49,221 nt of DNA from Candidatus Aerophobota bacterium (GTDB taxonomy: Bacteria > Aerophobota > Aerophobia > Aerophobales > JAGGXI01): NCBI GenBank assembly GCA_021163155.1, contig JAGGXI010000072.1, positions 1 through 49,221 on the forward strand. Reading direction: 5' to 3'. The notes below the pieces were generated by a model that worked only from the letters and a program-made list of their open reading frames with translations, was not told where the DNA came from and ran no database searches. Below, in pieces: positions 4,738-15,877 of the stretch. Both the position numbers and the translations under genes were made by a program. Each line of letters starts with the position of its first letter. The first letter of the stretch is position 1.

Positions 4738-5227
4738 ATAAAATTCCCCCTTTTATTTGACTCTTTCCTTTAGCAAGTTCATCCTTGTATCTCTTTATTT
4801 TATTTTCTATCTTTGGAGAAGAAAGAGAGAGTATTTGAATAGCCAAAATAGCTGCATTCTTTGCTCCTGCTGCCCCTATAGCCATGCAAGCTACAGGTAC
4901 CCCAGCAGGCATTTGTACTGTAGAATATAAAGCATCCACACCCTGCAAAGGTGAAGAATTTAAAGGAACAGCAATTACGGGAAGAGTTGTATTGGCAGCA
5001 ATTGCTCCTGCTAAATGAGCCGCTCCTCCCGCTCCAGCGATAACAACCTTGATTCCTCTTTCTCTAAGACTCTTTGCATATTTTAAAGTAAAATCTGGCA
5101 TTCGATGAGCTGATAAAACCTTTATTTCATAAGGAATATCAAATTTATCCAGCATCTTCAAACAATTTTCCATTATAGAATAATCAGATTGACTTCCCAT
5201 CGTTACACTTACTTGAGGTATAACCAC
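4730..5227 (-). CDS. purE: N5-CAIR mutase PurE
   Basis: MGSQSD, SAHR, AGAGGAAHL and QMPAGVPVA motifs. Confidence 0.96.
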
Positions 5228-5396
5228 TAAAATCTCCTTCTTAATAATTCAGAATTGAGAAATAAAAAAATATGATGAACCTCTCTTACTTTTCACTTCT
5301 TCGCAGGCTCTGAGCCTTGCAGCTACCGTCTCACTTCTCACTTTTATTTTCCCTTTAATCCTGCTTTTTTGCCTCTTGCCTCTTACTTCTTACTTC

Positions 5397-7709
5397 TTAG
5401 GGAATATCCTTCGGCAGCAAAGTATCCAAGACTTCAATGGATTTTTTTATCTTAGTTTGATAATAGGGAGTATCAATTACTGTTATTTCATTATTACAAA
5501 GTATAATATTCCCTTTATCTGATAAAAAACGGCGAACAATAGGAATGATATCCGAAGTTTCTACATGCTTTAACTTGTAGGTTCTTCTTTCTTTCCATCT
5601 GTTAAACTTATCTATAGCAAGAATTTTTTGTTTAATTCTCTTTAAAGGATAGGAAGCTTCCTGAAGTACAAATTCGTTTTTCTCTTCATCTTTACTCAAA
5701 ACCTTAGCCTCGAAAGATTTAAGTTCTCCTATTATCTCTATGATTTGGGAAAGAGGAGCATATTTTAAATGAATAATCTCCTCTCTCTTCTCTTTTTCAA
5801 AATTATCAAAACAAGTTAACTTCTCTTTAATTAAAGCCAAATGATAAGAAGAATCCTTCGCAAAAATAGAATTCTCTTCCTCATCAACTTTAACTTCTCC
5901 TTTATCAGACAAAAAAGGAATTATCTTTTTAGACAAAGGAGCAGCAAAACAGTATTTTGCTTGATAACTCATCTCCTCAGGTTGATATATATCAAATTTT
6001 TTAATATTTTTCTTTACTTCATCCAGATGCCATTTCAGAGCGATAACCACCAGAGCATTTCTGTCAGCATCTACCTTTATAGTAGCCTTATTACAAAGAA
6101 CAGAAGAGAGTGTCTTCTTAAACTCTTCTGATGAATAAAGTATATCAGCTTTTACATATTTTAAGAAAAATACTTCGCTCTTTTTTTGGGAGTTAAAATC
6201 ATCCAATTTTGCTATTTTCTCAGCTATTTTCTGAATCACCCAGTTATTATCTACCACCATTAACCTGTTCTTTTTTATATAAATATTTCCCCGAGGGGAG
6301 AGAATTTTTTTTAAAAGAGGGGTAATAAATTCACCTCTTTGAATATACTTTAAAGAAAAGCTCTTTCTTTGTAACTTTTGATTATGTTTTTCAAGAGAGG
6401 CTAAAGCTTCCTTTATTCTCATTAATTGATATGCTCCATCCTCTATTATTAAATTATACTTTTCCTTATTCATACGGATATTTCCTTTTGAAGAAAGCAA
6501 AGGAGAAAGAGCTTCTTTTGCTTCTTCAAGAGAAGAATATCTCAGGGGAAAGACTTTTTCTCTTCTTTGCTCTTTAAAAGTACCCATCCTGCTTAACATC
6601 TTCTGGATTACCTCTACTTTATCTTCAGAATCCCTTACTAAAATTGAATTAGAAGGAGCCTCTTTGGGATTTATCTCCATTGTTCCCTGAGAAGAAATAA
6701 TCCCTTTGATTTGATTAGCCATCTCTTCTGCAATAGCATATCTAAAGGAAAAAACTTTCTTACATCTTCCCTTTATCTCCCTCGGTTTAAGTATATGAGG
6801 AGTCACTGTTATAAGAAGGTTTTTTGTCGATGTTGCCGTCTTCTTACTCTTAAAAATATCACCTATAATAGGAAGGTCGGAAAGAATAGGAAGACCTTTT
6901 TCTGTCTTTTCTTTCTTCTTTATTACCAACCCTCCAATAATGATAGGCTCGTCACTCCTTACAGTGATGTTGGTAGGGGATACCTGACGAGAAAAAACAG
7001 GACGCTCTGTCCCAAATTCTTCAGTACTGTAATCACTCACTACAGGGATAATAGACATTTGAACATATTCTTTCCCTATAATTTTAGGAAGCACTTGAAG
7101 AACTATTCCTACGGTGACATAAGTATACTCTTTAGTCTCTTCACTTATTCCCGCTTCTGTTGTAGTAGTGACCTTGGAAAGATAAGAAACATCTTCAACA
7201 TTATAAATGCCGGCTACCTCTCCACTTATGGTGGTTACCCGAGGTTCTGAGAGAACTTTTGCTTCCCCTTTAGAGACAAGCATATTTAAAAGAGCCTGGA
7301 ATTCTTCCTCTCCGCTTACTAATCTATAGAAATTAAAACTGAAGCCACCTATACTTTTATTTCCTATTTCTGTAAGCGTCTTAGGGCCGTACTCCAAAAT
7401 AGTTCCCTCACCTTCAGTTCCTTTAGGAGTTTCGATGCCTGTTTTCCTCTCTATATATGCACCAAAATTCTGAGCGCCACTTTTTGTAAGCTCTAATACT
7501 CTTGCCTTAATTTGAATCTGTCTTGTCTCTAAAGGAAATTGAGGGATCATCTTCTCTATCTCTTTTAATTTCTCCCTGGGAGCTCTTACCGTAATTCTTC
7601 CCGTAGAAGTATCCACCATAATGGAGGGTTCTGCAAAAACTTTAAAATTAAAGAAAGAAAAAAAAATCATTATTAAGAAAAGTACCCCTACTATTTTAAT
7701 TTTTCTCAT
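5397..7709 (-). CDS. Secretin (PilQ/GspD family) with atypical domain order: signal peptide, half N-domain, secretin barrel, then ~7 C-terminal secretin N-domain repeats
   Basis: QIQIKARVLE, KVLSEPRVTT, VGIVLQVLPKI, IIIGGL, GLPILSDLPIIGDIFK and LLITVTPHIL fall in aa ~63-310. They are followed by ~62-68 aa repeats of the form FxLKY..LSxKG..N.L...D....I..I..LD. Confidence 0.88.
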   Translation of the reverse strand: MRKIKIVGVLFLIMIFFSFFNFKVFAEPSIMVDTSTGRITVRAPREKLKEIEKMIPQFPLETRQIQIKARVLELTKSGAQNFGAYIERKTGIETPKGTEGEGTILEYGPKTLTEIGNKSIGGFSFNFYRLVSGEEEFQALLNMLVSKGEAKVLSEPRVTTISGEVAGIYNVEDVSYLSKVTTTTEAGISEETKEYTYVTVGIVLQVLPKIIGKEYVQMSIIPVVSDYSTEEFGTERPVFSRQVSPTNITVRSDEPIIIGGLVIKKKEKTEKGLPILSDLPIIGDIFKSKKTATSTKNLLITVTPHILKPREIKGRCKKVFSFRYAIAEEMANQIKGIISSQGTMEINPKEAPSNSILVRDSEDKVEVIQKMLSRMGTFKEQRREKVFPLRYSSLEEAKEALSPLLSSKGNIRMNKEKYNLIIEDGAYQLMRIKEALASLEKHNQKLQRKSFSLKYIQRGEFITPLLKKILSPRGNIYIKKNRLMVVDNNWVIQKIAEKIAKLDDFNSQKKSEVFFLKYVKADILYSSEEFKKTLSSVLCNKATIKVDADRNALVVIALKWHLDEVKKNIKKFDIYQPEEMSYQAKYCFAAPLSKKIIPFLSDKGEVKVDEEENSIFAKDSSYHLALIKEKLTCFDNFEKEKREEIIHLKYAPLSQIIEIIGELKSFEAKVLSKDEEKNEFVLQEASYPLKRIKQKILAIDKFNRWKERRTYKLKHVETSDIIPIVRRFLSDKGNIILCNNEITVIDTPYYQTKIKKSIEVLDTLLPKDIP

Positions 7710-7770
7710 TTTTCTCCCTCTAATACTGTTTTTTCTCTTTTTTGTTTTTTCCCCTTTAATCCTCTAATCC

Positions 7771-9588
7771 TTACTTTCCGGGCCCTATTGTCCCTAAATT
7801 AATGTTTGGTGAAGGGACACTCATATTCATCCATTGACCTTTTTTCTCTGTTAATTCCATTCCTTTTATATTTTCAGGTTTCACTCCAATCATATTGGCT
7901 ATAGTAATAGCTATATTATCCAGGGAACCTTCTTCAATATAAAATGTTTTGGTGGTTATCTCTTCTCCCATAGAAGAGCTATTCAGTTTTGAAATTTCCT
8001 TATTTATTTTAGGAATATTCCTTTTTAAATCAGTTATATAAATTGTATTTCTGTTTTCATAAAGTCTATTATTCTTAGGGGAACTATTCTTTTCTTGAGA
8101 TTTAAATTTAACTTCTTCTTTGCTCTCATCTTGAGGAATGATAATATAATCTTCCTCAACATTTTTCTTTTTCTCTTCAACATCTTTAACTTGAGGTAAA
8201 GATATTTTCCCGTATTCGCTAATTACATTTCGAAGAAAATATTCAGCCTCCCTGGCAGTCAAATATTCCAAAGTGTATCCCTTTGTAGTTAACTGAGAGC
8301 TTAAAACATCTACCTTATTAATTAATTCATCAACCTTTTTTAAATACTTTTCTACATCTGAAACTACAATAGTATCTGTCTTTTCATCTATCTCCACCTT
8401 ACCTTTATCCGAGAGAAGCTCCTCTATTTCTCTTGCTGTTTGAGAGAGGGGAGCAAACTTTATTCTATAAGTTTTCCTCTGGGGTTTAAAAGAATCCATC
8501 TCTCCAACAATTTTCTTTATTTTCTCTAAATTATAAGAAAAATCCTTTACTATAAGAAAAGACCTCTCCTTATCCTCCTTTAATTCTCCATAAGAGGATA
8601 GTCTCTCTTTAATAGAGGAGGACACTCTCTTTATTTGGGCATACTTTATCTGAAAATCCTCTTCCTTCATTTGCATCTGGGGATTATCTATACTTAAGAT
8701 AAAATCCTTTATTCTCTTTAAGTTATAAGAGGAGTCTGTAACTATAAGCTCATTTTTATCTTTGTTCACACTTATCTTTCCTTTAGAGCTAAGATAAGAG
8801 GGGATAAGCCTGGAAACTTCATCTGCTAAAGCAAATTTAAGGGAGAAAATTTTTAAAGTTGCCTTAAATACATCCAGAGAGGGGATAAAAGAGGATATCT
8901 CCTTCATTTTACAAGCAACATCTCTTACAAGAAGAGAATTGGCTAAAGAATTAACCTCAATTCCCCCTGTTTCACTTAAATAACTCTTTAAAATAGAGGC
9001 AGCTTTTTCAGCCTCAATAAAATTTAAGGAAAAGTTTTTTTCTCGCATCTGCCTTGCAGGCTCATCTATCTTTAAGATAGCATCCTCTATATTTTTAAAA
9101 TTCTCCTTAATATCGGTAACTATTAAAATATTTGTCTCCTCATTCACCTTAAGAATTCCCTTAGGAGAGAGAAATGATTTAATAGAAGATGCCTGTTCAG
9201 TAGCCAAAGCATACTTTAAGGGGAAATCCTTTGTGAGAAGAGAAACTTTTGCCTTGACCACCTTTATAACATTGTTATCTACTATCTGGTAATCGCAATC
9301 ACTTCCCTTAAGAATGATTTGAAGAGCTTTTAATGCAGGAATGGGCCTGGGGAAACTCGCTGTTACTTTTCCTTCTACATCAGGACCTATAATCATATTT
9401 AAACCTGTTTTAAGAGATATAGCATGTAGAGCATCTCTTAAATTAATATCTGTAAAATTTAAAAAGATATCTTCACTCTGATAAGATATCTTACTGATAT
9501 TGGGGGAGGAACCAAAACAAGAAGAATCTAAAGTAATTATTCCTACCAGTAATCCTAAAAATATCCATACTTTTATTACCTTCATCAT
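7771..9588 (-). CDS. Secretin periplasmic part only: signal peptide, N0/STN-like domain, ~6 N-domain repeats and a terminal half repeat; no beta-barrel
   Basis: LNFTDINLRDALHAIS..GLNMII..DVEGKVT (N0-like), then repeated FxLKY/F..LSxKG..N.LIVTD units. It occupies the pilQ position after pilP. Confidence 0.82.
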   Translation of the reverse strand: MMKVIKVWIFLGLLVGIITLDSSCFGSSPNISKISYQSEDIFLNFTDINLRDALHAISLKTGLNMIIGPDVEGKVTASFPRPIPALKALQIILKGSDCDYQIVDNNVIKVVKAKVSLLTKDFPLKYALATEQASSIKSFLSPKGILKVNEETNILIVTDIKENFKNIEDAILKIDEPARQMREKNFSLNFIEAEKAASILKSYLSETGGIEVNSLANSLLVRDVACKMKEISSFIPSLDVFKATLKIFSLKFALADEVSRLIPSYLSSKGKISVNKDKNELIVTDSSYNLKRIKDFILSIDNPQMQMKEEDFQIKYAQIKRVSSSIKERLSSYGELKEDKERSFLIVKDFSYNLEKIKKIVGEMDSFKPQRKTYRIKFAPLSQTAREIEELLSDKGKVEIDEKTDTIVVSDVEKYLKKVDELINKVDVLSSQLTTKGYTLEYLTAREAEYFLRNVISEYGKISLPQVKDVEEKKKNVEEDYIIIPQDESKEEVKFKSQEKNSSPKNNRLYENRNTIYITDLKRNIPKINKEISKLNSSSMGEEITTKTFYIEEGSLDNIAITIANMIGVKPENIKGMELTEKKGQWMNMSVPSPNINLGTIGPGK

Positions 9589-10020
9589 CTATCTCCCTAT
9601 TTTTAATTTAATCACCCCATCTTTTCCTATTAAAATGACTTCTCCTGTATCCCTTTTAATCTCAGATATTACAAAATTCTTTATAATATCTCCTCTTTTC
9701 ACAATCCATATCTTCTTTTCCTCTTGAATAATGGCAAGTATTCCTTTCTCATCTCCCACCAAACCCACTAACTTATATTTTGAATTTAGTAATATTTTAG
9801 GAGAAACTGCTAACTTATTAGGTTTAGAAGATTTATAGACTCTCTTTTTGCTTAATAGAGATACGAAAGGGTCTCTTCTCTCTTCACTTTTATATTGAAA
9901 AAAGGACGAGGAAAAATTTGTCCCTTTATCTACCTCTTTTTCTTCTTTTGCCAGAGAAATATTAATATTAAAAGAAGAGATAAGGATTATCTCTAAAATC
10001 ACCAAAAAAATATATCTCAT
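9589..10020 (-). CDS. PilP-like pilus assembly protein
   Basis: Y....RRDPF motif and a C-terminal LVGLV..AII..IVKRGD.I beta domain; lies after pilO. Confidence 0.75.
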   Translation of the reverse strand: MRYIFLVILEIILISSFNINISLAKEEKEVDKGTNFSSSFFQYKSEERRDPFVSLLSKKRVYKSSKPNKLAVSPKILLNSKYKLVGLVGDEKGILAIIQEEKKIWIVKRGDIIKNFVISEIKRDTGEVILIGKDGVIKLKIGR

Positions 10021-10673
10021 TCCCTTTTCCTATTAACTGCTAAAGCAGGGCCTTCTTTCTTTCCTTCACTAACCTTAGGAGTAGGCTTAAAAGAGGATTC
10101 TTTGTAAGTATACATTAAAAGGACCATTTCTATATCTATGGTATTTTTTTTATTCAACTTTTTACTTTCTTCTGTTGTGGTCAATCCTTTTATCCTAATC
10201 TCTTCCACATTAAAAGGAACCATTGCTTTTTTTCTGTTTATATCTGAAAGAAGCATACCTAAAGCATGATAAGTAGAATAAAAATGCATTCTTACCGGAA
10301 GATAGTTATAATACTTTCCCTTGACTATCTGTTGAGGAACTATTTTTATATAATCAATGCCGTATATTTGTGCTTTAACCCCTATTTCTTGAAGGAAAAA
10401 GTATATCTGATCTTCCGTAGAAAGACTTTCTTCTAGAGAAGAGACTCTTGCTTTTGTCTCCTCATATTTACGTTCTATTTCACCATGTTTATAAACTTCT
10501 TTTTGGGCTCGATTAAGAATTAAATTATCCTCGCTTATCTGCCTTCTTATTTTTTTAAGGAGTTTAATCTGAGGAAGATAAAAACCCCAATAAAAAGTGC
10601 AAATTATAGCTAAGCACACTCCTAATCCTATTACTATTCTACCTTTTGGCGTTAAAAAAGATAGTTTACTCAC
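10017..10673 (-). CDS. pilO: Type IV pilus assembly protein PilO
   Basis: N-terminal TM, coiled coil, YNYLPVRM..STYHALG pattern; pilMNOP synteny. Confidence 0.85.
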   Translation of the reverse strand: MSKLSFLTPKGRIVIGLGVCLAIICTFYWGFYLPQIKLLKKIRRQISEDNLILNRAQKEVYKHGEIERKYEETKARVSSLEESLSTEDQIYFFLQEIGVKAQIYGIDYIKIVPQQIVKGKYYNYLPVRMHFYSTYHALGMLLSDINRKKAMVPFNVEEIRIKGLTTTEESKKLNKKNTIDIEMVLLMYTYKESSFKPTPKVSEGKKEGPALAVNRKRE

Positions 10674-11239
10674 TGCTCTTCCTCTCCAAAAAGTTTCAAA
10701 CTACAATTTAGCTTAAATTCCATCACTCCTGTTCCATCTATCACTCTTCTGGATATCTCGGAAAGATTTATTCGGTTAAAAAGAGAAGAATTATTTAAAT
10801 TCTCCATAAACTTAGCTATATCCACAGTCTGGTTGAAACTATATCCCCGAATATTAACCATTCTCTCTTTATTCTTAGGGATTTGTGTAAGTTCAGCTAA
10901 CCAGATATTATCTGGTAAGGACTTACTTATTACATAAAGAATTTGAGGCCAGGAAGGTCGATTGGCCACTAATTTCCTAAGATTATTAAGATGGGAGGTG
11001 ATTTCGGCTTCCTTAGCTTTCAATTCTTTTAATTCCACTAATAAAGGCTGGTATTTTTTAATTTCACTTTTAATTAAATTTGATTGTCTTACAGCTATTT
11101 TAACCTCTTCTTTAACGGAGAAAAAAAGGGAAAGACAAATTAAAACAATGGTTACAGCGGATATGGAAATAAAAATAGCGAAAGCCTTTATTCCTTTACG
11201 TTTAAGCGCTTGTTCAGGTAATAGATTTATCTCTATCAT
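10670..11239 (-). CDS. pilN: Type IV pilus assembly protein PilN
   Basis: N-terminal INLLP motif, TM, coiled coil, LPDNIWL. Confidence 0.92.
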   Translation of the reverse strand: MIEINLLPEQALKRKGIKAFAIFISISAVTIVLICLSLFFSVKEEVKIAVRQSNLIKSEIKKYQPLLVELKELKAKEAEITSHLNNLRKLVANRPSWPQILYVISKSLPDNIWLAELTQIPKNKERMVNIRGYSFNQTVDIAKFMENLNNSSLFNRINLSEISRRVIDGTGVMEFKLNCSLKLFGEEEQ

Positions 11240-12294
11240 ACCTCTGCCACCTTTCTAAAAGCTAAACCTAACACTGGAGTAAACATCGGCTCTACTTCAG
11301 CTAAATAATTAGGCTGGAATTTTCGAGAATCGTAGATAATTTTCTTAAAAGGATGGTATTTCTCTACAGGTATTCCCAACTCTTCGGATAAAAATCCCTC
11401 TATATTCTTAAGACAGGAGGTACCTCCGCTAAGAATTAATTTATTTATAATTTCTCCTCTTTTTTGAGAAGTATAATATTCAAAAGAATGAATAACCTCT
11501 TTTATTAAATTATCCATAGATTTCCTGATCACTTTATCTACCAATCTTCTTTCTTTTTCCTCTTCTTTCTCTATATCCTGAAAAGCAAGAAGTCCATATC
11601 TTTTCTTTATTTCCTCTGCTTCTTTGTAATCAACTTTTAATTGTTTTGCAATAGAGTGTGTAATCTGGAAACCTCCTATATTTATGTCCCTTACTACAAA
11701 GGGACTGCCTTTAAATAACAAGACAATACTGGTTGTGTAATGCCCAATATCAAGAAGAGCTATATTGCTTAATTCTTCTTCATTAAACAATTGAAAAACA
11801 TTAAATAGAGCAAGAGCCTTAACATCTATAATCTGAGGAGAAATACCTGCTTTTTGGAGAAGATTAAGATGTGCATCAATCAGCTCCTTCTTTACGCCTA
11901 CCAGCATTACAGACATTTTTCCCCCCGCCAAGTCCTTATCAAGAATGTGGAATCCTAATGAGATATCATTGGATGGATAAGGGATATACTCTTCTACTTG
12001 CCATTTAATAGATTGTGCAAATTCTTTCTCTGTCATTCGAGGCATTTCCACTATGCGAACAATCACTTTATCTCCCCCTATTCCAGAAACAATTCGTTTT
12101 GGATTAATTTTATATTTGCTAACAATCTTTTTGATGGCTTCTATAGTAAGAGATTCTGACTGAGAATTATCTTCTATAGGGTTTATTTCTACCATACCCA
12201 ACTTTCTTAATTCATAACCTCTCTTTCTATGAATTAATTCTACTGCTTTTACTATTCTTCCTCCTATTTCCAAACCCACACTTACCTTAGCCAT
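11236..12294 (-). CDS. pilM: Type IV pilus assembly protein PilM (actin-like)
   Basis: VGLEIG, YIPY, LLDIGH, GGFQIT and LSGG motifs; directly upstream of pilN. Confidence 0.93.
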   Translation of the reverse strand: MAKVSVGLEIGGRIVKAVELIHRKRGYELRKLGMVEINPIEDNSQSESLTIEAIKKIVSKYKINPKRIVSGIGGDKVIVRIVEMPRMTEKEFAQSIKWQVEEYIPYPSNDISLGFHILDKDLAGGKMSVMLVGVKKELIDAHLNLLQKAGISPQIIDVKALALFNVFQLFNEEELSNIALLDIGHYTTSIVLLFKGSPFVVRDINIGGFQITHSIAKQLKVDYKEAEEIKKRYGLLAFQDIEKEEEKERRLVDKVIRKSMDNLIKEVIHSFEYYTSQKRGEIINKLILSGGTSCLKNIEGFLSEELGIPVEKYHPFKKIIYDSRKFQPNYLAEVEPMFTPVLGLAFRKVAEV

Positions 12295-12299
12295 TTTTT

Positions 12300-12767
12300 T
12301 TATCCCTTACTTCTTAATCTATCTGAATCCAAAATTAAAGTCACCGGTCCATCATTATCCGCTAATATTCTCATTTGAGCACCAAATTTTCCTTCTTTTA
12401 CTTCATCTATTCTTCTTCTAATCAGCTCCCCAAATTTCAGATAGAGTTTCTTAGCAGAATCAACAGGAGCTGCTTCCATAAAATTAGGACGAAAACCTTT
12501 TTTGCAATCTCCATAAAGTGTAAATTGAGGGATGAGAAGAATCCCCCCTCCAACCTGAGAAAGAGATAAGTTTATTTTTCCTTTTTTATCTTCAAATATA
12601 CGTAAGTTAACTATTTTCTCAGCTAAATATTCTGCATCTTCTACTCTATCTCTTTTACCAATACCTAAAAAAACTACCATTCCTTTATTAATAGAGCCTA
12701 TTACCTGTTCATCCACATAGCAGGCAGATTTCTTTACTCGCTGAACTACTGCTCTCATCTCTGACAT
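12300..12767 (-). CDS. dtd: D-aminoacyl-tRNA deacylase
   Basis: MRAVVQRV, NLRIFED, QFTL and NDGPVT motifs. Start may be 12758. Confidence 0.95.
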   Translation of the reverse strand: MSEMRAVVQRVKKSACYVDEQVIGSINKGMVVFLGIGKRDRVEDAEYLAEKIVNLRIFEDKKGKINLSLSQVGGGILLIPQFTLYGDCKKGFRPNFMEAAPVDSAKKLYLKFGELIRRRIDEVKEGKFGAQMRILADNDGPVTLILDSDRLRSKG

Positions 12768-12779
12768 ACTCTTTGGTTA

Positions 12780-14192
12780 CTAATTTTCTCTTGAAATAAA
12801 TTTGGTCACTTTTATTTTAAGAATTCTTTTAGTCTCTTTCCTAATTTTAAAATGCTCATCAATACGATAACCTACTATCCAAACTATTTCATCTTTACTT
12901 ATTAAAAGAGGAACTTTATCTCGTTTTTCTCGGGGAATTTTAAGATTAATAAAAAAATCCTTAATTTTTTTACTTCCTTGCATACCAAAAGGGTAGAATC
13001 TATCTCCTTCCTTCCTTTTTCTTAAAAATAGAGGTTTTTTCATCTTATCCAAATCAAAATAAGCCTCATTACTATCCTTACCGAAAGAAGAAGGTTTATT
13101 ATACATTATTTTGCTCTTTAACACTATACTTAGCTCTGGCAGGTATGTATCTCCGGGAACAATCAAAGAGCGGGGAGAAAAAATATCCTCTTTTCTAATT
13201 GCTTTTTTAATTAATAAATTTTTATACTCTCTTTGTGCTACAACTCCCCCAGGTATATCCAATTGTTTGCACCCTTTCTTCTCATCCAATTTTAAGATAG
13301 ATGCAATATGTTCAAATGCAACGCCTTTGAGATCACCTTTCATTTGTTGAATAGCTTTTCTTAGAACTCTCCTTTGTAAAGCAAGATGAAGTTGAGAGAG
13401 CTTCTCTCCATTTAAAACTATACATTTTTCATCTCTTTTTTTAAGCAATGATTTAAACTCTTCTTCACTCTTTTCTTTTAAATAAAAATTTTCTTCCCTT
13501 AAGATTTCACTCGTGTGGAAAAGACTTTTTATTAGCCGAGGATTATATTTTTTACAGAGATAAGGAATTAGATGAAGACGAATTTTATTACGTAAAAAAT
13601 AAGTTTTTTTATTGGAGGAATCTATACAAATATAAAGACTGTTCTTCTGGCAATAATTTTCTGTCTCTTCCCTAAAAATTTCAATTAAGGGACGGATAAT
13701 CTTACCCCTTACAGGGGGAATCCCAGAAAGCCCATCTAAACCGCTTCCCCTTATCATCCTCATCAAAAAAGTCTCTATCTGGTCAGATGCTGTGTGCCCT
13801 AAAGCGATCTTATCTGCTTTTATCCGTTTAGCTGCACGCTCAAAAAAATCGTATCGTACTCGCCGTGCTGCTTCTTCTAAAGATAACTTCTCCTCTTTAG
13901 CTAATAAGGCAACATTAAAAGATTCTAAAATTACAGGAATTCCTAATTGAGATGCAAACCCCTTTACCCGTTCAACTTCTTTATCAGCCTCTTCTCCTCT
14001 TAATTGATGGTTAAGGCAAGATGCCCATAACTTAAGATTATATTTAGATTTAAGTCTAAATAAAAGGTGAAGTAAAGCAACCGAATCCGGACCACCAGAA
14101 ACTCCTACTACTACTCGTGCATTTAAAGGGAGCATCTGATATTTTTCTATAGTATTTTCTATCTTTTCTAAAAAAGTCTTCTTACTATTCAC
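12780..14192 (-). CDS. tilS: tRNA(Ile)-lysidine synthetase
   Basis: SGGPDS PP-loop, EEAARRVRY, GHTASDQIET, RNKIR and a C-terminal TilS domain. Confidence 0.96.
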   Translation of the reverse strand: MNSKKTFLEKIENTIEKYQMLPLNARVVVGVSGGPDSVALLHLLFRLKSKYNLKLWASCLNHQLRGEEADKEVERVKGFASQLGIPVILESFNVALLAKEEKLSLEEAARRVRYDFFERAAKRIKADKIALGHTASDQIETFLMRMIRGSGLDGLSGIPPVRGKIIRPLIEIFREETENYCQKNSLYICIDSSNKKTYFLRNKIRLHLIPYLCKKYNPRLIKSLFHTSEILREENFYLKEKSEEEFKSLLKKRDEKCIVLNGEKLSQLHLALQRRVLRKAIQQMKGDLKGVAFEHIASILKLDEKKGCKQLDIPGGVVAQREYKNLLIKKAIRKEDIFSPRSLIVPGDTYLPELSIVLKSKIMYNKPSSFGKDSNEAYFDLDKMKKPLFLRKRKEGDRFYPFGMQGSKKIKDFFINLKIPREKRDKVPLLISKDEIVWIVGYRIDEHFKIRKETKRILKIKVTKFISREN

Positions 14193-14275: not shown

Positions 14276-15340
14276 TTATTCTCTCAATTTTTCTCTAATA
14301 ATTTTTGCTCTTAATTCATTTCGAGAAAAAGAACTCAGCTCTTTCCCTTCTTTAATCTGAATCTGAGCAGGAGCAATTAAAAAAAGAAGCTCATTTAAAA
14401 CGCGAATGTTTTTCACTTTGGGTAATAAATTCAAACTAAATCCTAACCTCACTTTTGAAAGCAAATCCATAGCTTCTTCAAAACTTATCAAATAAGCATT
14501 CGCAAGAAGACCATAAGCTCTTCCTATATTATCTTTAAGTTCTGTTTTATTTTTTCTAAATAAGATCTCCCTCGCTTTCTTCTCTTCTTCTACTGCTTGT
14601 CGGCTTATTTTTCCCACATTATCTACAATCTCTTCTTCCTTTATACCTAAAGTAACTTGATTTGATATTTGGAAAAAATCACCCTGAGGTGTAGTTCCTT
14701 CACCATATAAACCTCTGGCTACCAATCCTAATTGAGATATCCCTCTTAATACTCCATTAATTCTTTGAGTAGCTACCAGCCCAGGAAGATGCAGCATACA
14801 GGAAGCTCTCATACCTGTACCTGTGTTGGTAGGACAAGCAGTAAGGTAACCCCACTTAGGAGAAAAAGCATAATCCAAATTTCTTTCTAATTCATCATCT
14901 ACTGCATTAATTAACTGCCAGGCCTCTTGCAATTGAAGTCCAGAAAAAATACTTTGCAAACGGAAATGGTCTTCCTCATTTATCATTAAAGAAATTATTT
15001 CTCTTTTTTCCACTACTAAGAATCTATAATCTTCACTCTTAATAAATTCTAAACTAATTAAATGTTTTTCCAAGAAAAATTCTCTTTCCACAGGAGAAAG
15101 CTCGCTTATATTGATTACTCGTGCATTTCTAAAATAGTTACTTTTTCTTACCGAATTTAAAATCTTCTCTGCTGTCTGTTTTAATACAAAAGGTTGAGCA
15201 TAAGGAGGAAAAACAAAACCTTTTAGATTACGAGCTAATCTTATTCGACAACTAAAAACAACATCTGCCTCTGGTCCATTCCCCATCAACCATCCACTGG
15301 TAGAATTAGCTATCTCTTGAAGAGTCGTTTTATTTTTCAT
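14276..15340 (-). CDS. mcsB: Protein arginine kinase McsB
   Basis: RIRLARN, MINEEDH, GYLTACPTNTGTGMRAS and QISNQVTLG motifs; adjacent to mcsA. Confidence 0.95.
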   Translation of the reverse strand: MKNKTTLQEIANSTSGWLMGNGPEADVVFSCRIRLARNLKGFVFPPYAQPFVLKQTAEKILNSVRKSNYFRNARVINISELSPVEREFFLEKHLISLEFIKSEDYRFLVVEKREIISLMINEEDHFRLQSIFSGLQLQEAWQLINAVDDELERNLDYAFSPKWGYLTACPTNTGTGMRASCMLHLPGLVATQRINGVLRGISQLGLVARGLYGEGTTPQGDFFQISNQVTLGIKEEEIVDNVGKISRQAVEEEKKAREILFRKNKTELKDNIGRAYGLLANAYLISFEEAMDLLSKVRLGFSLNLLPKVKNIRVLNELLFLIAPAQIQIKEGKELSSFSRNELRAKIIREKLRE

Positions 15341-15833
15341 CTTTTTCTAACCTATGGATTTCATCTCTAATTTCAGCTGCCCTTTCGTATTCTTCCTTTT
15401 TTATCACTTCTTTTAGCTCCTTACGTAATTCATAAATTTGTTTGCTTAACCCATTCTTAACCTTTCCCTTTTGTGGAATCTTACCAGAATGATAAGTTTT
15501 GCCTTGAATTCTTTCCAAAAGAGGAGTTAAGTATTTCTCAAAGACTTGATAGCAAGAACTACAACCTATCTTTCCTCTTTTTTTAATATCTTCATAACTT
15601 AGCCCACAAATGGGGCATCTTACTGTTTCGACTTCTTCTGCAGGAAAAGGAATCTCTATATCTGTTAAACTAGCTATTAAATTGGACAGAGGGAAACCCG
15701 GCATAAAAAAAGGCTTATCCCATCCCTTTTCTTTGGCACATACTTCACATAGATGAAGTTCCCTTACCTCTCCATTGATTACTTCTTTAAAATGAAACGT
15801 AGCTTCTCTTTTGCCACATATCTGACAAAGCAT
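15330..15833 (-). CDS. mcsA: McsA (CxxC zinc fingers plus UVR domain), activator of McsB
   Basis: MLCQIC, LCEVCA, CPICG, GCSSCY and EEYERAAEIRDEI. Start trimmed to the ATG at 15833. Confidence 0.93.
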   Translation of the reverse strand: MLCQICGKREATFHFKEVINGEVRELHLCEVCAKEKGWDKPFFMPGFPLSNLIASLTDIEIPFPAEEVETVRCPICGLSYEDIKKRGKIGCSSCYQVFEKYLTPLLERIQGKTYHSGKIPQKGKVKNGLSKQIYELRKELKEVIKKEEYERAAEIRDEIHRLEKDEK

Positions 15834-15849
15834 TTTTATACCTTTCTTA

Positions 15850-15877
15850 ATTTTATAATTAACCAAAGTTATGTCAA
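15850..15877 (-). promoter_or_regulatory. Putative sigma70-type promoter for mcsA
   Basis: Minus strand TTGACA-N16-TAAAAT. Confidence 0.65.

What the first reader, a model, noticed from the sequence alone, without database searches (positions are those of the whole stretch)
5397..9588. Two-gene split secretin, apparently cut in the middle of the N3 domain, each half with its own signal peptide
Seen: the gene in the pilQ slot (7771-9588) has a signal peptide, an N0-like domain and ~6 N repeats. It ends with only the first strand and helix of another repeat (TKTFYIEEGSLDNIAITIANMIG, aa ~546 on) plus a loop-like tail, and has no barrel. The next gene has its own RBS (GAGGGAG) and signal peptide (…KVFA|EP). 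Its mature chain begins with the missing second half of an N-domain (SIMVDTSTGRITVRAPREKLKEIEKMIPQF) directly before the barrel (RQIQIKARVLE). Established: N3 has a variable loop at this position and is important for secretin assembly. Inference: gene fission at the N3 loop, with the halves re-forming N3 in trans, giving a heteromeric type IV pilus/competence channel. This is my best candidate for an undescribed system in the window.
Basis: partly seen in the sequence, partly recalled or inferred. Interest (0 to 1): 0.88.

Follow-up and report, generated by a model that had tools for sequence, protein, structure and literature searches.

The report
Two-gene split type IV pilus secretin
In the uncultured phylum Aerophobetes the outer-membrane pore of the type IV pilus machine is encoded as two adjacent, separately exported proteins cut inside one small domain, an unusual layout for a protein that is normally a single chain.

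Summary
Downstream of pilM-N-O-P (minus strand) lie two ORFs. A (7771-9588, 605 aa) has a signal peptide, N0, six N-type repeats and a conserved C-terminal piece, but no barrel. B (5397-7709, 770 aa) has its own RBS and signal peptide. Its mature end matches the second half (beta2-beta3-alpha2) of the N3 domain of canonical secretins (profile P 7e-12). A's last structured piece maps weakly (P about 0.007-0.009) but in register onto the missing first half of N3.

The split is not an artefact. 22 of 31 Aerophobota genomes held carry a B gene with the same signal peptide and mature start. All 21 fetched loci that hold the pair have A directly upstream. No fused form was found.

Re-formation of N3 in trans remains inference: the one complex job gave no verdict.

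Split secretins are already described for rhizobial type III systems (rhcC1/rhcC2). I therefore call this a new variant of a known kind. My searches found no description of a pilus secretin cut inside N3, or of a barrel protein carrying a post-barrel N-domain array.

The parts
11236..12294 (-). pilM (352 aa)
   Evidence: PF11104 PilM_2, E 1.5e-44
10670..11239 (-). pilN (189 aa)
   Evidence: PF05137 PilN, E 1.4e-12
10017..10673 (-). pilO (218 aa)
   Evidence: PF04350 PilO, E 5.4e-10
9589..10020 (-). pilP-like gene (143 aa)
   Evidence: PF04351 PilP, E 0.0036, below the Pfam cut-off. Assigned mainly from its position between pilO and the secretin genes
7771..9588 (-). Gene A: N-terminal secretin protein (605 aa), with signal peptide, N0, six N-type repeats, a half-domain and a tail; no barrel
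9259..9462 (-). N0 domain of A (aa 43-110)
   Evidence: PF21305, E 4.7e-8; STN, E 2.2e-4
7984..9234 (-). Six N1-type (Secretin_N) repeats of A (aa 119-535). The sixth carries an insertion that is disordered in the model
   Evidence: repeat HMM; AF2 of the last 176 aa
7885..7953 (-). Putative beta1-alpha1 half of N3 (A aa 546-568)
   Evidence: hhalign P 0.0094 and 0.0067, in register. AF2 gives only a helix at aa 556-567, at low confidence
7774..7884 (-). Conserved C-terminal tail of A (aa 569-605). It is disordered when modelled alone and holds invariant G, W, G and G columns
   Evidence: alignments A2/A3 of 22 sequences. The tail lies at the extreme C-terminus in 7 of 7 stored A-type proteins and is not found in canonical secretins. 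AF2:
7710..7770 (-). 61-nt spacer with RBS GAGGGAG (7714-7720). A's frame meets two further stop codons here, and the ATG of B is in another frame
   Evidence: sequence. The scan found no terminator-like site in the spacer
5397..7709 (-). Gene B: barrel protein (770 aa)
7632..7709 (-). Signal peptide of B (aa 1-26)
   Evidence: sequence; conserved in 19 of 19 orthologues; helix at residues 2-20 in the AF2 model
7536..7631 (-). beta2-beta3-alpha2 half of N3 (B aa 27-58)
   Evidence: hhalign P 1.8e-8 and 7e-12; HMM positions 29-57 of 59; aligns to GspD N3 in solved chains; strands 29-32 and 39-42 and helix 45-57 in the model, at low pLDDT
6780..7529 (-). Secretin beta-barrel region (B aa 61-310)
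   Evidence: PF00263, E 9.4e-36; Foldseek against solved secretins, E 5.9e-12
5424..6764 (-). Seven complete N1-type (beta-alpha-beta-beta-alpha) domains after the barrel (B aa 316-762)
   Evidence: AF2 pLDDT 84-94; repeat HMM, seven hits with i-E 6e-13 to 2.5e-21

Best explanation
This is the type IV pilus (PilQ-type) secretin of a Candidatus Aerophobetes bacterium, encoded as two co-oriented adjacent genes.

Shown:
- A is a Sec-exported periplasmic protein. It has N0, six N1-type ring-building repeats, a short piece that maps onto beta1-alpha1 of the domain next to the barrel (N3), and a conserved 37-residue tail.
- B is separately Sec-exported. It starts with beta2-beta3-alpha2 of N3, continues into the outer-membrane barrel, and ends with seven further N1-type domains.
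- The arrangement is fixed across the phylum. B is the only secretin barrel found in this genome.

Inferred:
- The gene was cut in the variable alpha1-beta2 loop of N3.
- In the periplasm, A's beta1-alpha1 and tail fold onto B's half-domain and restore N3.
- The pore would then be a 1:1 hetero-oligomer. B would form the gated barrel. A would form the stack of periplasmic rings that reaches the PilMNOP platform through N0.
- B's post-barrel domains would add extra periplasmic rings or an outer sleeve.
For: Gene context:
- pilM, pilN, pilO and a pilP-like gene lie directly upstream on the same strand.
- The genome also holds PilB and PilC (contig C34), PilT-like (C89), ComEC (C40) and BamA (C59).
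- It holds a single PF00263 barrel, which is B.

Complementary boundaries:
- B 27-58 aligns to canonical N3 columns 88-119 (P 7e-12).
- A 546-568 aligns to columns 56-78 of the same profile (P 0.0067; reversed-tail control 0.29).
- Both halves land in the same register on the in-family repeat profile.
- Solved GspD/PilQ chains align from B residue 29-32 onward.
- In 52 canonical relatives the linker between these two halves varies from a few residues to tens of residues.

Conservation:
- 22 of 31 Aerophobota genomes have a B gene starting at query residue 14 or earlier. 2 more are cut by contig ends. The 7 without a match are 57-92% complete.
- 19 of 19 aligned B proteins share the signal peptide and the mature start, with invariant D33, T36, G37, R38 and I39.
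- 22 of 22 A proteins share the C-terminal piece. 9 of the 12 invariant columns in A's last 176 residues lie in its last 57.

Gene linkage:
- The distance from A's stop to B's start is -1 to 231 nt in 18 loci, with no constant frame.

Folding of the halves alone:
- Modelled alone, A's end does not fold into a domain (tail pLDDT below 40).
- B's half-domain is the least confident folded part of B (pLDDT about 44).
- This is as expected for pieces that need a partner.

No fused form:
- None among 150 best of 1.84 billion representatives. Only 6 hits reach E 1e-30 or better, and all are barrel-first.
- None among proteins of 1349-3850 aa (2 distant hits).
- None among the best 120 near-length hits.
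Against: - The identification of A's last piece as beta1-alpha1 is weak (hhalign probability 4-6%).
- AF2 forms only the helix there, not the strand.
- The best solved-structure profile hit of A's end (6w6m, E 0.055, not significant) laid that piece on the first barrel strand of V. cholerae PilQ rather than on N3 beta1-alpha1.
- B has 3-7 complete N-type domains of its own in every orthologue. It could therefore build a periplasmic vestibule without A.
- There are no expression, interaction or structural data for these proteins.
- Alignment depth was only 19-22 related sequences.
Confidence: 0.55

Rival explanations
1. Same machine, but no trans-complemented N3. B alone forms the whole outer-membrane channel and uses its own post-barrel N-type domains as the periplasmic vestibule, a rewired or permuted secretin. 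A is a separate periplasmic ring or adaptor protein. It docks by some other contact, for instance its conserved tail binding the barrel base or a post-barrel domain, or does not dock at all. On this reading the half-domains are evolutionary leftovers.
For: - B carries 3-7 complete, confidently modelled N-type domains after the barrel in all orthologues.
- A's beta1-alpha1 assignment is weak.
- A's 37-residue tail has no counterpart in canonical secretins, so its role need not be N3 completion.
Against: - Leftovers should decay. Yet B's half-domain and A's end are among the most conserved parts of each protein across at least six families.
- The boundaries are exactly complementary, with no element missing or doubled.
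- N0, the part that contacts the inner-membrane platform in known systems (established knowledge, recalled), is found only on A.
Confidence: 0.3
2. Replacement, as proposed for rhizobial RhcC1/RhcC2. A is the remnant of the original PilQ whose barrel was lost. B is a secretin taken from another system and inserted next to it.
For: - Precedent: RhcC2 is reported as Tad-like and as acquired by partial homologous replacement. This is Abby and Rocha 2012 as cited in PMC4311626 (passage read; the primary paper was not read).
- Several Aerophobota genomes also carry ordinary unsplit secretins at 29-35% identity to B.
Against: - B's post-barrel repeats match the same repeat profile as A's repeats.
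- B aligns with A over about 326 residues at 30% identity, which suggests a common origin.
- B lacks exactly the piece that A retains.
- No donor-like barrel-first secretin was seen outside the clade among the 150 best representatives.
Confidence: 0.1
3. Not a functional split. The arrangement is an assembly or sequencing error, a pseudogene, or a single protein made by read-through or frameshifting.
For: Public annotations call some of these proteins 'partial'.
Against: - The same two-gene layout is seen in 21 fetched loci from separate genome assemblies.
- B's signal peptide is conserved.
- Spacer lengths run from -1 to 231 nt with no common frame.
- In the window, A's frame meets two more stops in the spacer and B's ATG is in another frame.
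- Logan contigs of runs X1 and X2 cross 7710-7770 with no difference. Both are from one study, which may be the source of the window.
Confidence: 0.03

Closest known systems
Type IVa pilus secretin PilQ (e.g. V. cholerae 6w6m, P. aeruginosa 6ve2; NCBIfam TIGR02515)
   Same: - Position after pilMNOP.
- N0, Secretin_N and Secretin domains.
- Both halves hit TIGR02515 (E 1.4e-44 and 1.5e-49).
- Sequence and fold matches to solved PilQ and GspD chains.
   Different: - Canonical PilQ is one polypeptide ordered (AMIN)-N0-N3-secretin (PMC7545093, section 9, passages read). Here the chain is cut inside N3 into two exported proteins.
- Neither half reaches the family cut-off of 284 bits.
- No AMIN domain was found.
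- 3-7 N-type domains follow the barrel.
Split secretin of Rhc-type type III secretion systems (rhcC1/nolW + rhcC2; hrcIIC1/hrcIIC2 in P. syringae)
   Same: - The N-terminal and C-terminal parts of a secretin are encoded by separate ORFs.
- This is conserved in a whole lineage.
- The functional meaning is stated as unknown (PMC3574062 section 16; PMC3973906 section 11; passages read).
   Different: - It is a type III system, not a pilus system.
- The genes are separated by other genes or lie in different cluster regions, whereas here they are adjacent.
- The origin is reported as replacement of the C-part by a Tad-like secretin (PMC4311626, passage).
- I could not see where that cut lies relative to N3. 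The alignment is in a supplementary figure, and supplements are closed.
- No post-barrel N-domain array is mentioned in the passages I read.
Multi-ring and giant secretins with long N-domain arrays (unnamed metagenomic proteins such as P0131, 4428 aa; Thermus/Deinococcus PilQ, recalled)
   Same: - These are the nearest barrels outside the clade, at about 27-31% identity.
- They have many Secretin_N repeats: 31 matched stretches in P0131. This resembles the 5-13 repeats of A.
   Different: They are single polypeptides with all repeats before a C-terminal barrel.
Secretins with post-barrel extensions (S domain of GspD/PulD, recalled; unnamed P0257 and P0247)
   Same: Sequence continues after the barrel.
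   Different: - Of 7 checked secretins with 185-560 residues after the barrel, none had a reported best Secretin_N match after the barrel.
- Two have TPR (P0257) or PKD/Ig (P0247) domains there, and the other five show no Pfam domain there.
- The S domain is short and binds a pilotin (recalled).

Membership tests
Secretin superfamily (Pfam PF00263) | Secretin barrel domain scoring above the curated cut-off | tested here: met
   B aa 144-308 scores 123.4 bits against a cut-off of 27.5. It is the only such match in the genome.
Secretin superfamily (Pfam PF00263) | Similarity to solved secretin structures | tested here: met
   phmmer against 22 PDB secretin sequences, best E 2.4e-20. Foldseek best E 5.9e-12, but with high rmsd because the model is a monomer.
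Type IVa pilus secretin PilQ (TIGR02515) | Whole-protein score above the NCBIfam cut-off (284.35 bits) | tested here: not met
   A scores 152.8 bits and B 169.2 bits. Each covers only part of the model.
Type IVa pilus secretin PilQ (TIGR02515) | N0, N3 and the secretin domain in one polypeptide | tested here: not met
   The domains are spread over two ORFs, each with a signal peptide. Canonical order is from PMC7545093, section 9.
Type IVa pilus secretin PilQ (TIGR02515) | Gene order pilM-N-O-P-Q | tested here: met
   PilM, PilN and PilO are clear Pfam hits. PilP is weak (E 0.0036). All lie directly upstream on the same strand. The same order is seen in loci L013, L014, L015, L025, L026 and L030.
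Type IVa pilus secretin PilQ (TIGR02515) | Homo-oligomeric ring of 12-15 subunits through which a pilus passes | not testable with these tools
   This needs biochemistry or cryo-EM.
Rhc-type split secretin (RhcC1/RhcC2) | N- and C-terminal secretin parts encoded by separate ORFs | tested here: met
Rhc-type split secretin (RhcC1/RhcC2) | Part of a type III secretion gene cluster | tested here: not met
   The upstream neighbours are pilMNOP and the downstream gene is purE. The best NCBIfam hits are GspD and PilQ. SctC scores E 1.2e-25, below its cut-off.
Type II secretion secretin GspD (TIGR02517) | Score above the cut-off (351.35 bits) and gsp gene context | tested here: not met
   A scores 164.9 bits and B 236.3 bits. 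The context is pilMNOP.

The most novel reading that the evidence does not exclude
The Aerophobetes pilus pore is an obligate two-protein secretin. It assembles by natural fragment complementation of the N3 domain: the barrel protein inserts into the outer membrane, and the N0-repeat protein then snaps onto it. The barrel protein's own 3-7 post-barrel ring-building domains form a second, outer periplasmic sleeve around the inner stack. I know of no secretin described with this double-walled, hetero-oligomeric architecture.
Probability: 0.25. Interest if true: 0.8.

Novelty: new variant of a known kind. Interest (0 to 1): 0.62.

Why it matters
Secretins are treated as single-chain homo-oligomers. 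The one described exception, rhcC1/rhcC2 of rhizobial type III systems, has no known functional explanation.

This is a second, independent split that is fixed across a phylum. It has three unusual features:
- The cut falls inside a small domain.
- Both pieces keep their own export signals.
- The barrel protein has N-type domains on its far side.

If the halves re-form N3, this would be a natural split-domain 'fastener' joining an outer-membrane pore to its periplasmic conduit. That would bear on three questions: how secretins assemble, how they span wide periplasms, and what N3 contributes to oligomerisation.

It also corrects public annotation, in which some of these proteins are named 'hypothetical' or 'partial'.

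It can be tested by co-expression, pull-down and cryo-EM without cultivating the organism.

Tried and rejected
- Complex prediction. I submitted B residues 27-390 with A's last 73 residues, using my own alignments. The score was 0.15-0.16 against a mark of 0.32, and the verdict was 'no answer'. It counts neither for nor against binding.
- RNA evidence. No RNA holder was listed for window 7300-8200, so nothing can be said about co-transcription.
- Run X3, from a second study, covered only parts of the stretch and not the junction.
- Block duplication as the origin of B's post-barrel array. The score matrix of A repeats against B repeats showed no diagonal. No origin scenario is supported.
- Profile of A's end against solved structures. 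The best hit was E 0.055, which is not significant. The remaining hits were ribosomal and other proteins, which I take as chance.
- Homologue search with A residues 430-605. It gave only 6 proteins, so the alignment for the second structure job stayed at 22 rows.
- Promoter and terminator scan of 5000-12900. It found 19 promoter-like sites against 26.1 expected from shuffles, and none in the spacer. It is uninformative.
- Literature searches for a pilus split secretin:
  -, six phrases: 2 papers, both on rhizobial type III systems.
  -, Aerophobetes + secretin: 1 review, seen in the listing only.
  -, Aerophobetes + 'type IV pil': 3 papers, listing only.
  -, secretin + circular permutation + PilQ: 3 papers, listing only.
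  -, N3 domain: 28 papers, 12 listed. Only PMC7545093 was opened.
  - None describes this arrangement. Subscription journals are not covered.
- Supplementary files were not opened because they are closed. Additional file 5 of PMC3574062 (RhcC1/RhcC2 alignments) may show where the rhizobial cut lies.

Full report
WHAT IS THERE

On the minus strand the window carries pilM (11236-12294), pilN (10670-11239), pilO (10017-10673) and a weak pilP-like gene (9589-10020). Two ORFs follow: A (7771-9588, 605 aa, P0001) and B (5397-7709, 770 aa, P0002). Downstream is purE.

The 61-nt spacer holds GAGGGAG 4 nt before B's ATG. In A's reading frame it holds two more stop codons, and B's ATG lies in another frame. 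A single product would therefore need several recoding events.

PROTEIN A

- The N-terminus looks like a signal peptide.
- Pfam finds an N0 domain (PF21305, aa 43-110) and Secretin_N repeats, and no barrel.
- A repeat HMM built from the family's own domains finds five whole repeats (119-427). A sixth is interrupted by an insertion (435-464 and 492-535).
- The remaining 70 residues are the point at issue.
  - Residues 546-567/568 align to positions 3-24 of the 59-position repeat profile (P 0.0094).
  - They also align to the beta1-alpha1 columns of a profile of the N3 regions of 52 canonical secretins (P 0.0067). A reversed control gave P 0.29-0.49.
  - These are weak scores (hhalign probability 4-6%). 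Both place the piece in the expected register.
- The last 37 residues are a conserved tail with invariant G, W, G and G columns.
  - The tail has no counterpart in canonical secretins.
  - It sits at the extreme C-terminus in 7 of 7 stored A-type proteins.
- AF2 was run on A's last 176 residues with 22 aligned sequences.
  - The penultimate domain folds.
  - The end gives only a low-confidence helix (556-567) and a disordered tail.
  - The end is therefore not predicted to be a domain on its own.

PROTEIN B

- It begins with K/R residues, a hydrophobic run and V-F-A before E-P.
- Its mature residues 27-58 align to repeat positions 27-58 (P 1.8e-8, probability 95%).
- They also align to the beta2-beta3-alpha2 columns of canonical N3 (P 7e-12, probability 97.5%).
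- Solved GspD and PilQ chains align from B residue 29-32 straight into the barrel.
- In the N3 profile, A's piece occupies columns 56-78 and B's piece columns 88-119. The two are adjacent, in order and non-overlapping.
- In the canonical proteins the linker between these two blocks varies from a few residues to tens of residues. The cut therefore falls where N3 tolerates insertions.
- The AF2 model of B (19 sequences, mean pLDDT 75) shows:
  - a signal-peptide helix;
  - a low-confidence beta-beta-alpha piece (29-57);
  - the barrel (64-306);
  - seven complete beta-alpha-beta-beta-alpha domains (316-761) at pLDDT 84-94.
It makes B more than 'half a PilQ'.

IS THE SPLIT REAL?

Names given by sources place the family in Candidatus Aerophobetes. 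The genome collection holds 31 genomes of the phylum, all of one order:

- 22 have a B gene whose match starts at query residue 14 or earlier.
- 2 more are cut by contig ends.
- 7 have no match at E 1e-20. These are 57-92% complete.

I fetched 20 further loci. Of the 22 B ORFs available, 19 were aligned. I left out L017 (cut by the contig end), L026 (441 aa) and L027. All 19 share the signal peptide and the mature start, with invariant D33, T36, G37, R38 and I39.

All 22 A proteins share the C-terminal piece. Nine of the twelve invariant columns in A's last 176 residues lie in the final 57.

A always lies directly upstream of B. The distance from stop to start is -1 to 231 nt in 18 loci, with no common frame.

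Repeat numbers vary. A has 5-13 repeats and B has 3-7 (B ORFs that are not cut short).

Logan contigs of two runs from one study cross the junction without a difference. That study may be the source of the window.

No fused form turned up:

- Among 1.84 billion representatives, only 6 hits reach E 1e-30 or better, and all are barrel-first. The next hits (E about 1e-29 and weaker) are canonical secretins with the barrel preceded by N-terminal domains.
- Among proteins of 1349-3850 aa there are only two distant hits.
- The best 120 near-length hits are 430-785 aa and cover 90-100% of B's first 320 residues.

GENOMIC SETTING

The genome is 1.83 Mb and 93% complete. It has one Secretin barrel, which is B. 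It also has:

- PilB and PilC together on contig C34;
- a PilT-like ATPase;
- ComEC;
- BamA.

This points to a diderm organism with a full type IV pilus or DNA-uptake set, whose only secretin is the split one.

HOW IT MOST LIKELY WORKS

Shown:
- Two separately exported proteins carry complementary pieces of one domain.
- Both pieces are under strong conservation.
- The two genes are tightly linked.

Inferred:
- A's beta1-alpha1, probably clasped by the conserved tail, folds onto B's beta2-beta3-alpha2 and restores N3.
- This gives a 1:1 hetero-oligomer. B supplies the gated barrel. A supplies the stack of periplasmic rings and the N0 domain.
- In known systems N0 meets the PilP/PilNO platform (recalled knowledge).
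- B's post-barrel domains would lie in the periplasm. Whether they form a second sleeve, further rings or a wall anchor cannot be told.

The one complex job gave no verdict and is not used as evidence. I put this reading at 0.55.

RIVAL READINGS

- B is self-sufficient and A docks otherwise or not at all (0.30). This is supported by B's own N-type domains and by the weak identification of A's half. It is opposed by the conservation and by the exact complementarity of the boundaries.
- Replacement, as reported for RhcC2 (0.10).
- Artefact, pseudogene or recoding (0.03). This is contradicted.

COMPARISON WITH WHAT IS KNOWN

Canonical T4aP secretins are single chains ordered (AMIN)-N0-N3-secretin (PMC7545093, section 9, passages read).

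Split secretin genes are known for Rhc-type type III systems:
- The genes lie apart in the cluster.
- The function of the split is unknown.
- Three pieces occur in B. elkanii and in one P. syringae pathovar.
(PMC3574062 section 16; PMC3973906 section 11; passages read.)

RhcC2 is reported as Tad-like and acquired by replacement (PMC4311626, passage citing Abby and Rocha 2012; the primary paper was not read).

The present case differs in five ways:
- the system is a pilus system;
- the genes are adjacent;
- the cut lies inside N3;
- the barrel protein has its own signal peptide, followed at once by a half-domain;
- there is a post-barrel N-domain array.

Of 7 other secretins with long post-barrel extensions, none had a reported best Secretin_N match after the barrel. 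Two carry TPR or PKD/Ig domains there and the other five no Pfam domain.

My literature searches found no description of this arrangement. Subscription journals and supplements were not covered.

VERDICT

- The fission reading is supported.
- Trans-complementation is plausible but unproven.
- The claim of an undescribed kind must be lowered to a new variant of the known split-secretin theme.

Interest 0.62.

Noticed in passing
proteins P0131, P0132, P0135, P0141, P0143 and others: The nearest barrels outside the Aerophobetes clade include giant secretins of about 2,000-4,800 aa. P0131 (4428 aa) has 31 matched Secretin_N stretches before a C-terminal barrel. Their organisms are unknown.
   Followed up: partly
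loci L013-L031: The number of N-type repeats varies widely between orthologues. A has 5-13. B has 3, 5, 6 or 7, and falls into length classes of about 440, 505-550, 630 and 765-800 aa. Long A does not simply go with short B.
   Followed up: partly
G027 contigs C30 and C97 (L016, L030): One Aerophobota genome (4% contamination) carries two copies of the split pair. In one copy A is over 1202 aa and B is 518 aa. In the other A is 605 aa and B is 504 aa.
   Followed up: no
L013:5291-7438: In G013 the signal peptide of the A protein ends in L-I-G-C, which looks like a lipobox. Some A proteins may therefore be lipoproteins. The window's A has no such motif.
   Followed up: no
window 14276-15866 (minus strand): An ATP:guanido phosphotransferase gene (354 aa) sits next to a UVR-motif gene (178 aa). 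The pair resembles the McsB/McsA protein-arginine kinase pair of Firmicutes (that name is recalled).
   Followed up: no
window 12300-14192 (minus strand): dtd (D-Tyr-tRNA deacylase) and tilS lie directly upstream of pilM. The same dtd-pilM adjacency recurs in L013, L014, L015 and L026.
   Followed up: no
proteins P0257 and P0247: Other secretins carry non-N-type modules after the barrel. P0257 (1005 aa) has TPR repeats and P0247 (639 aa) has PKD/Ig domains. Post-barrel extensions may be more varied than the classical S domain.
   Followed up: no
G020:C212, G027:C130, G008:C13, G002:C66, G014:C18: Several Aerophobota genomes also hold ordinary unsplit secretins (ORFs of 434-782 aa) at 30-35% identity to B. 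The window's genome has none.
   Followed up: no
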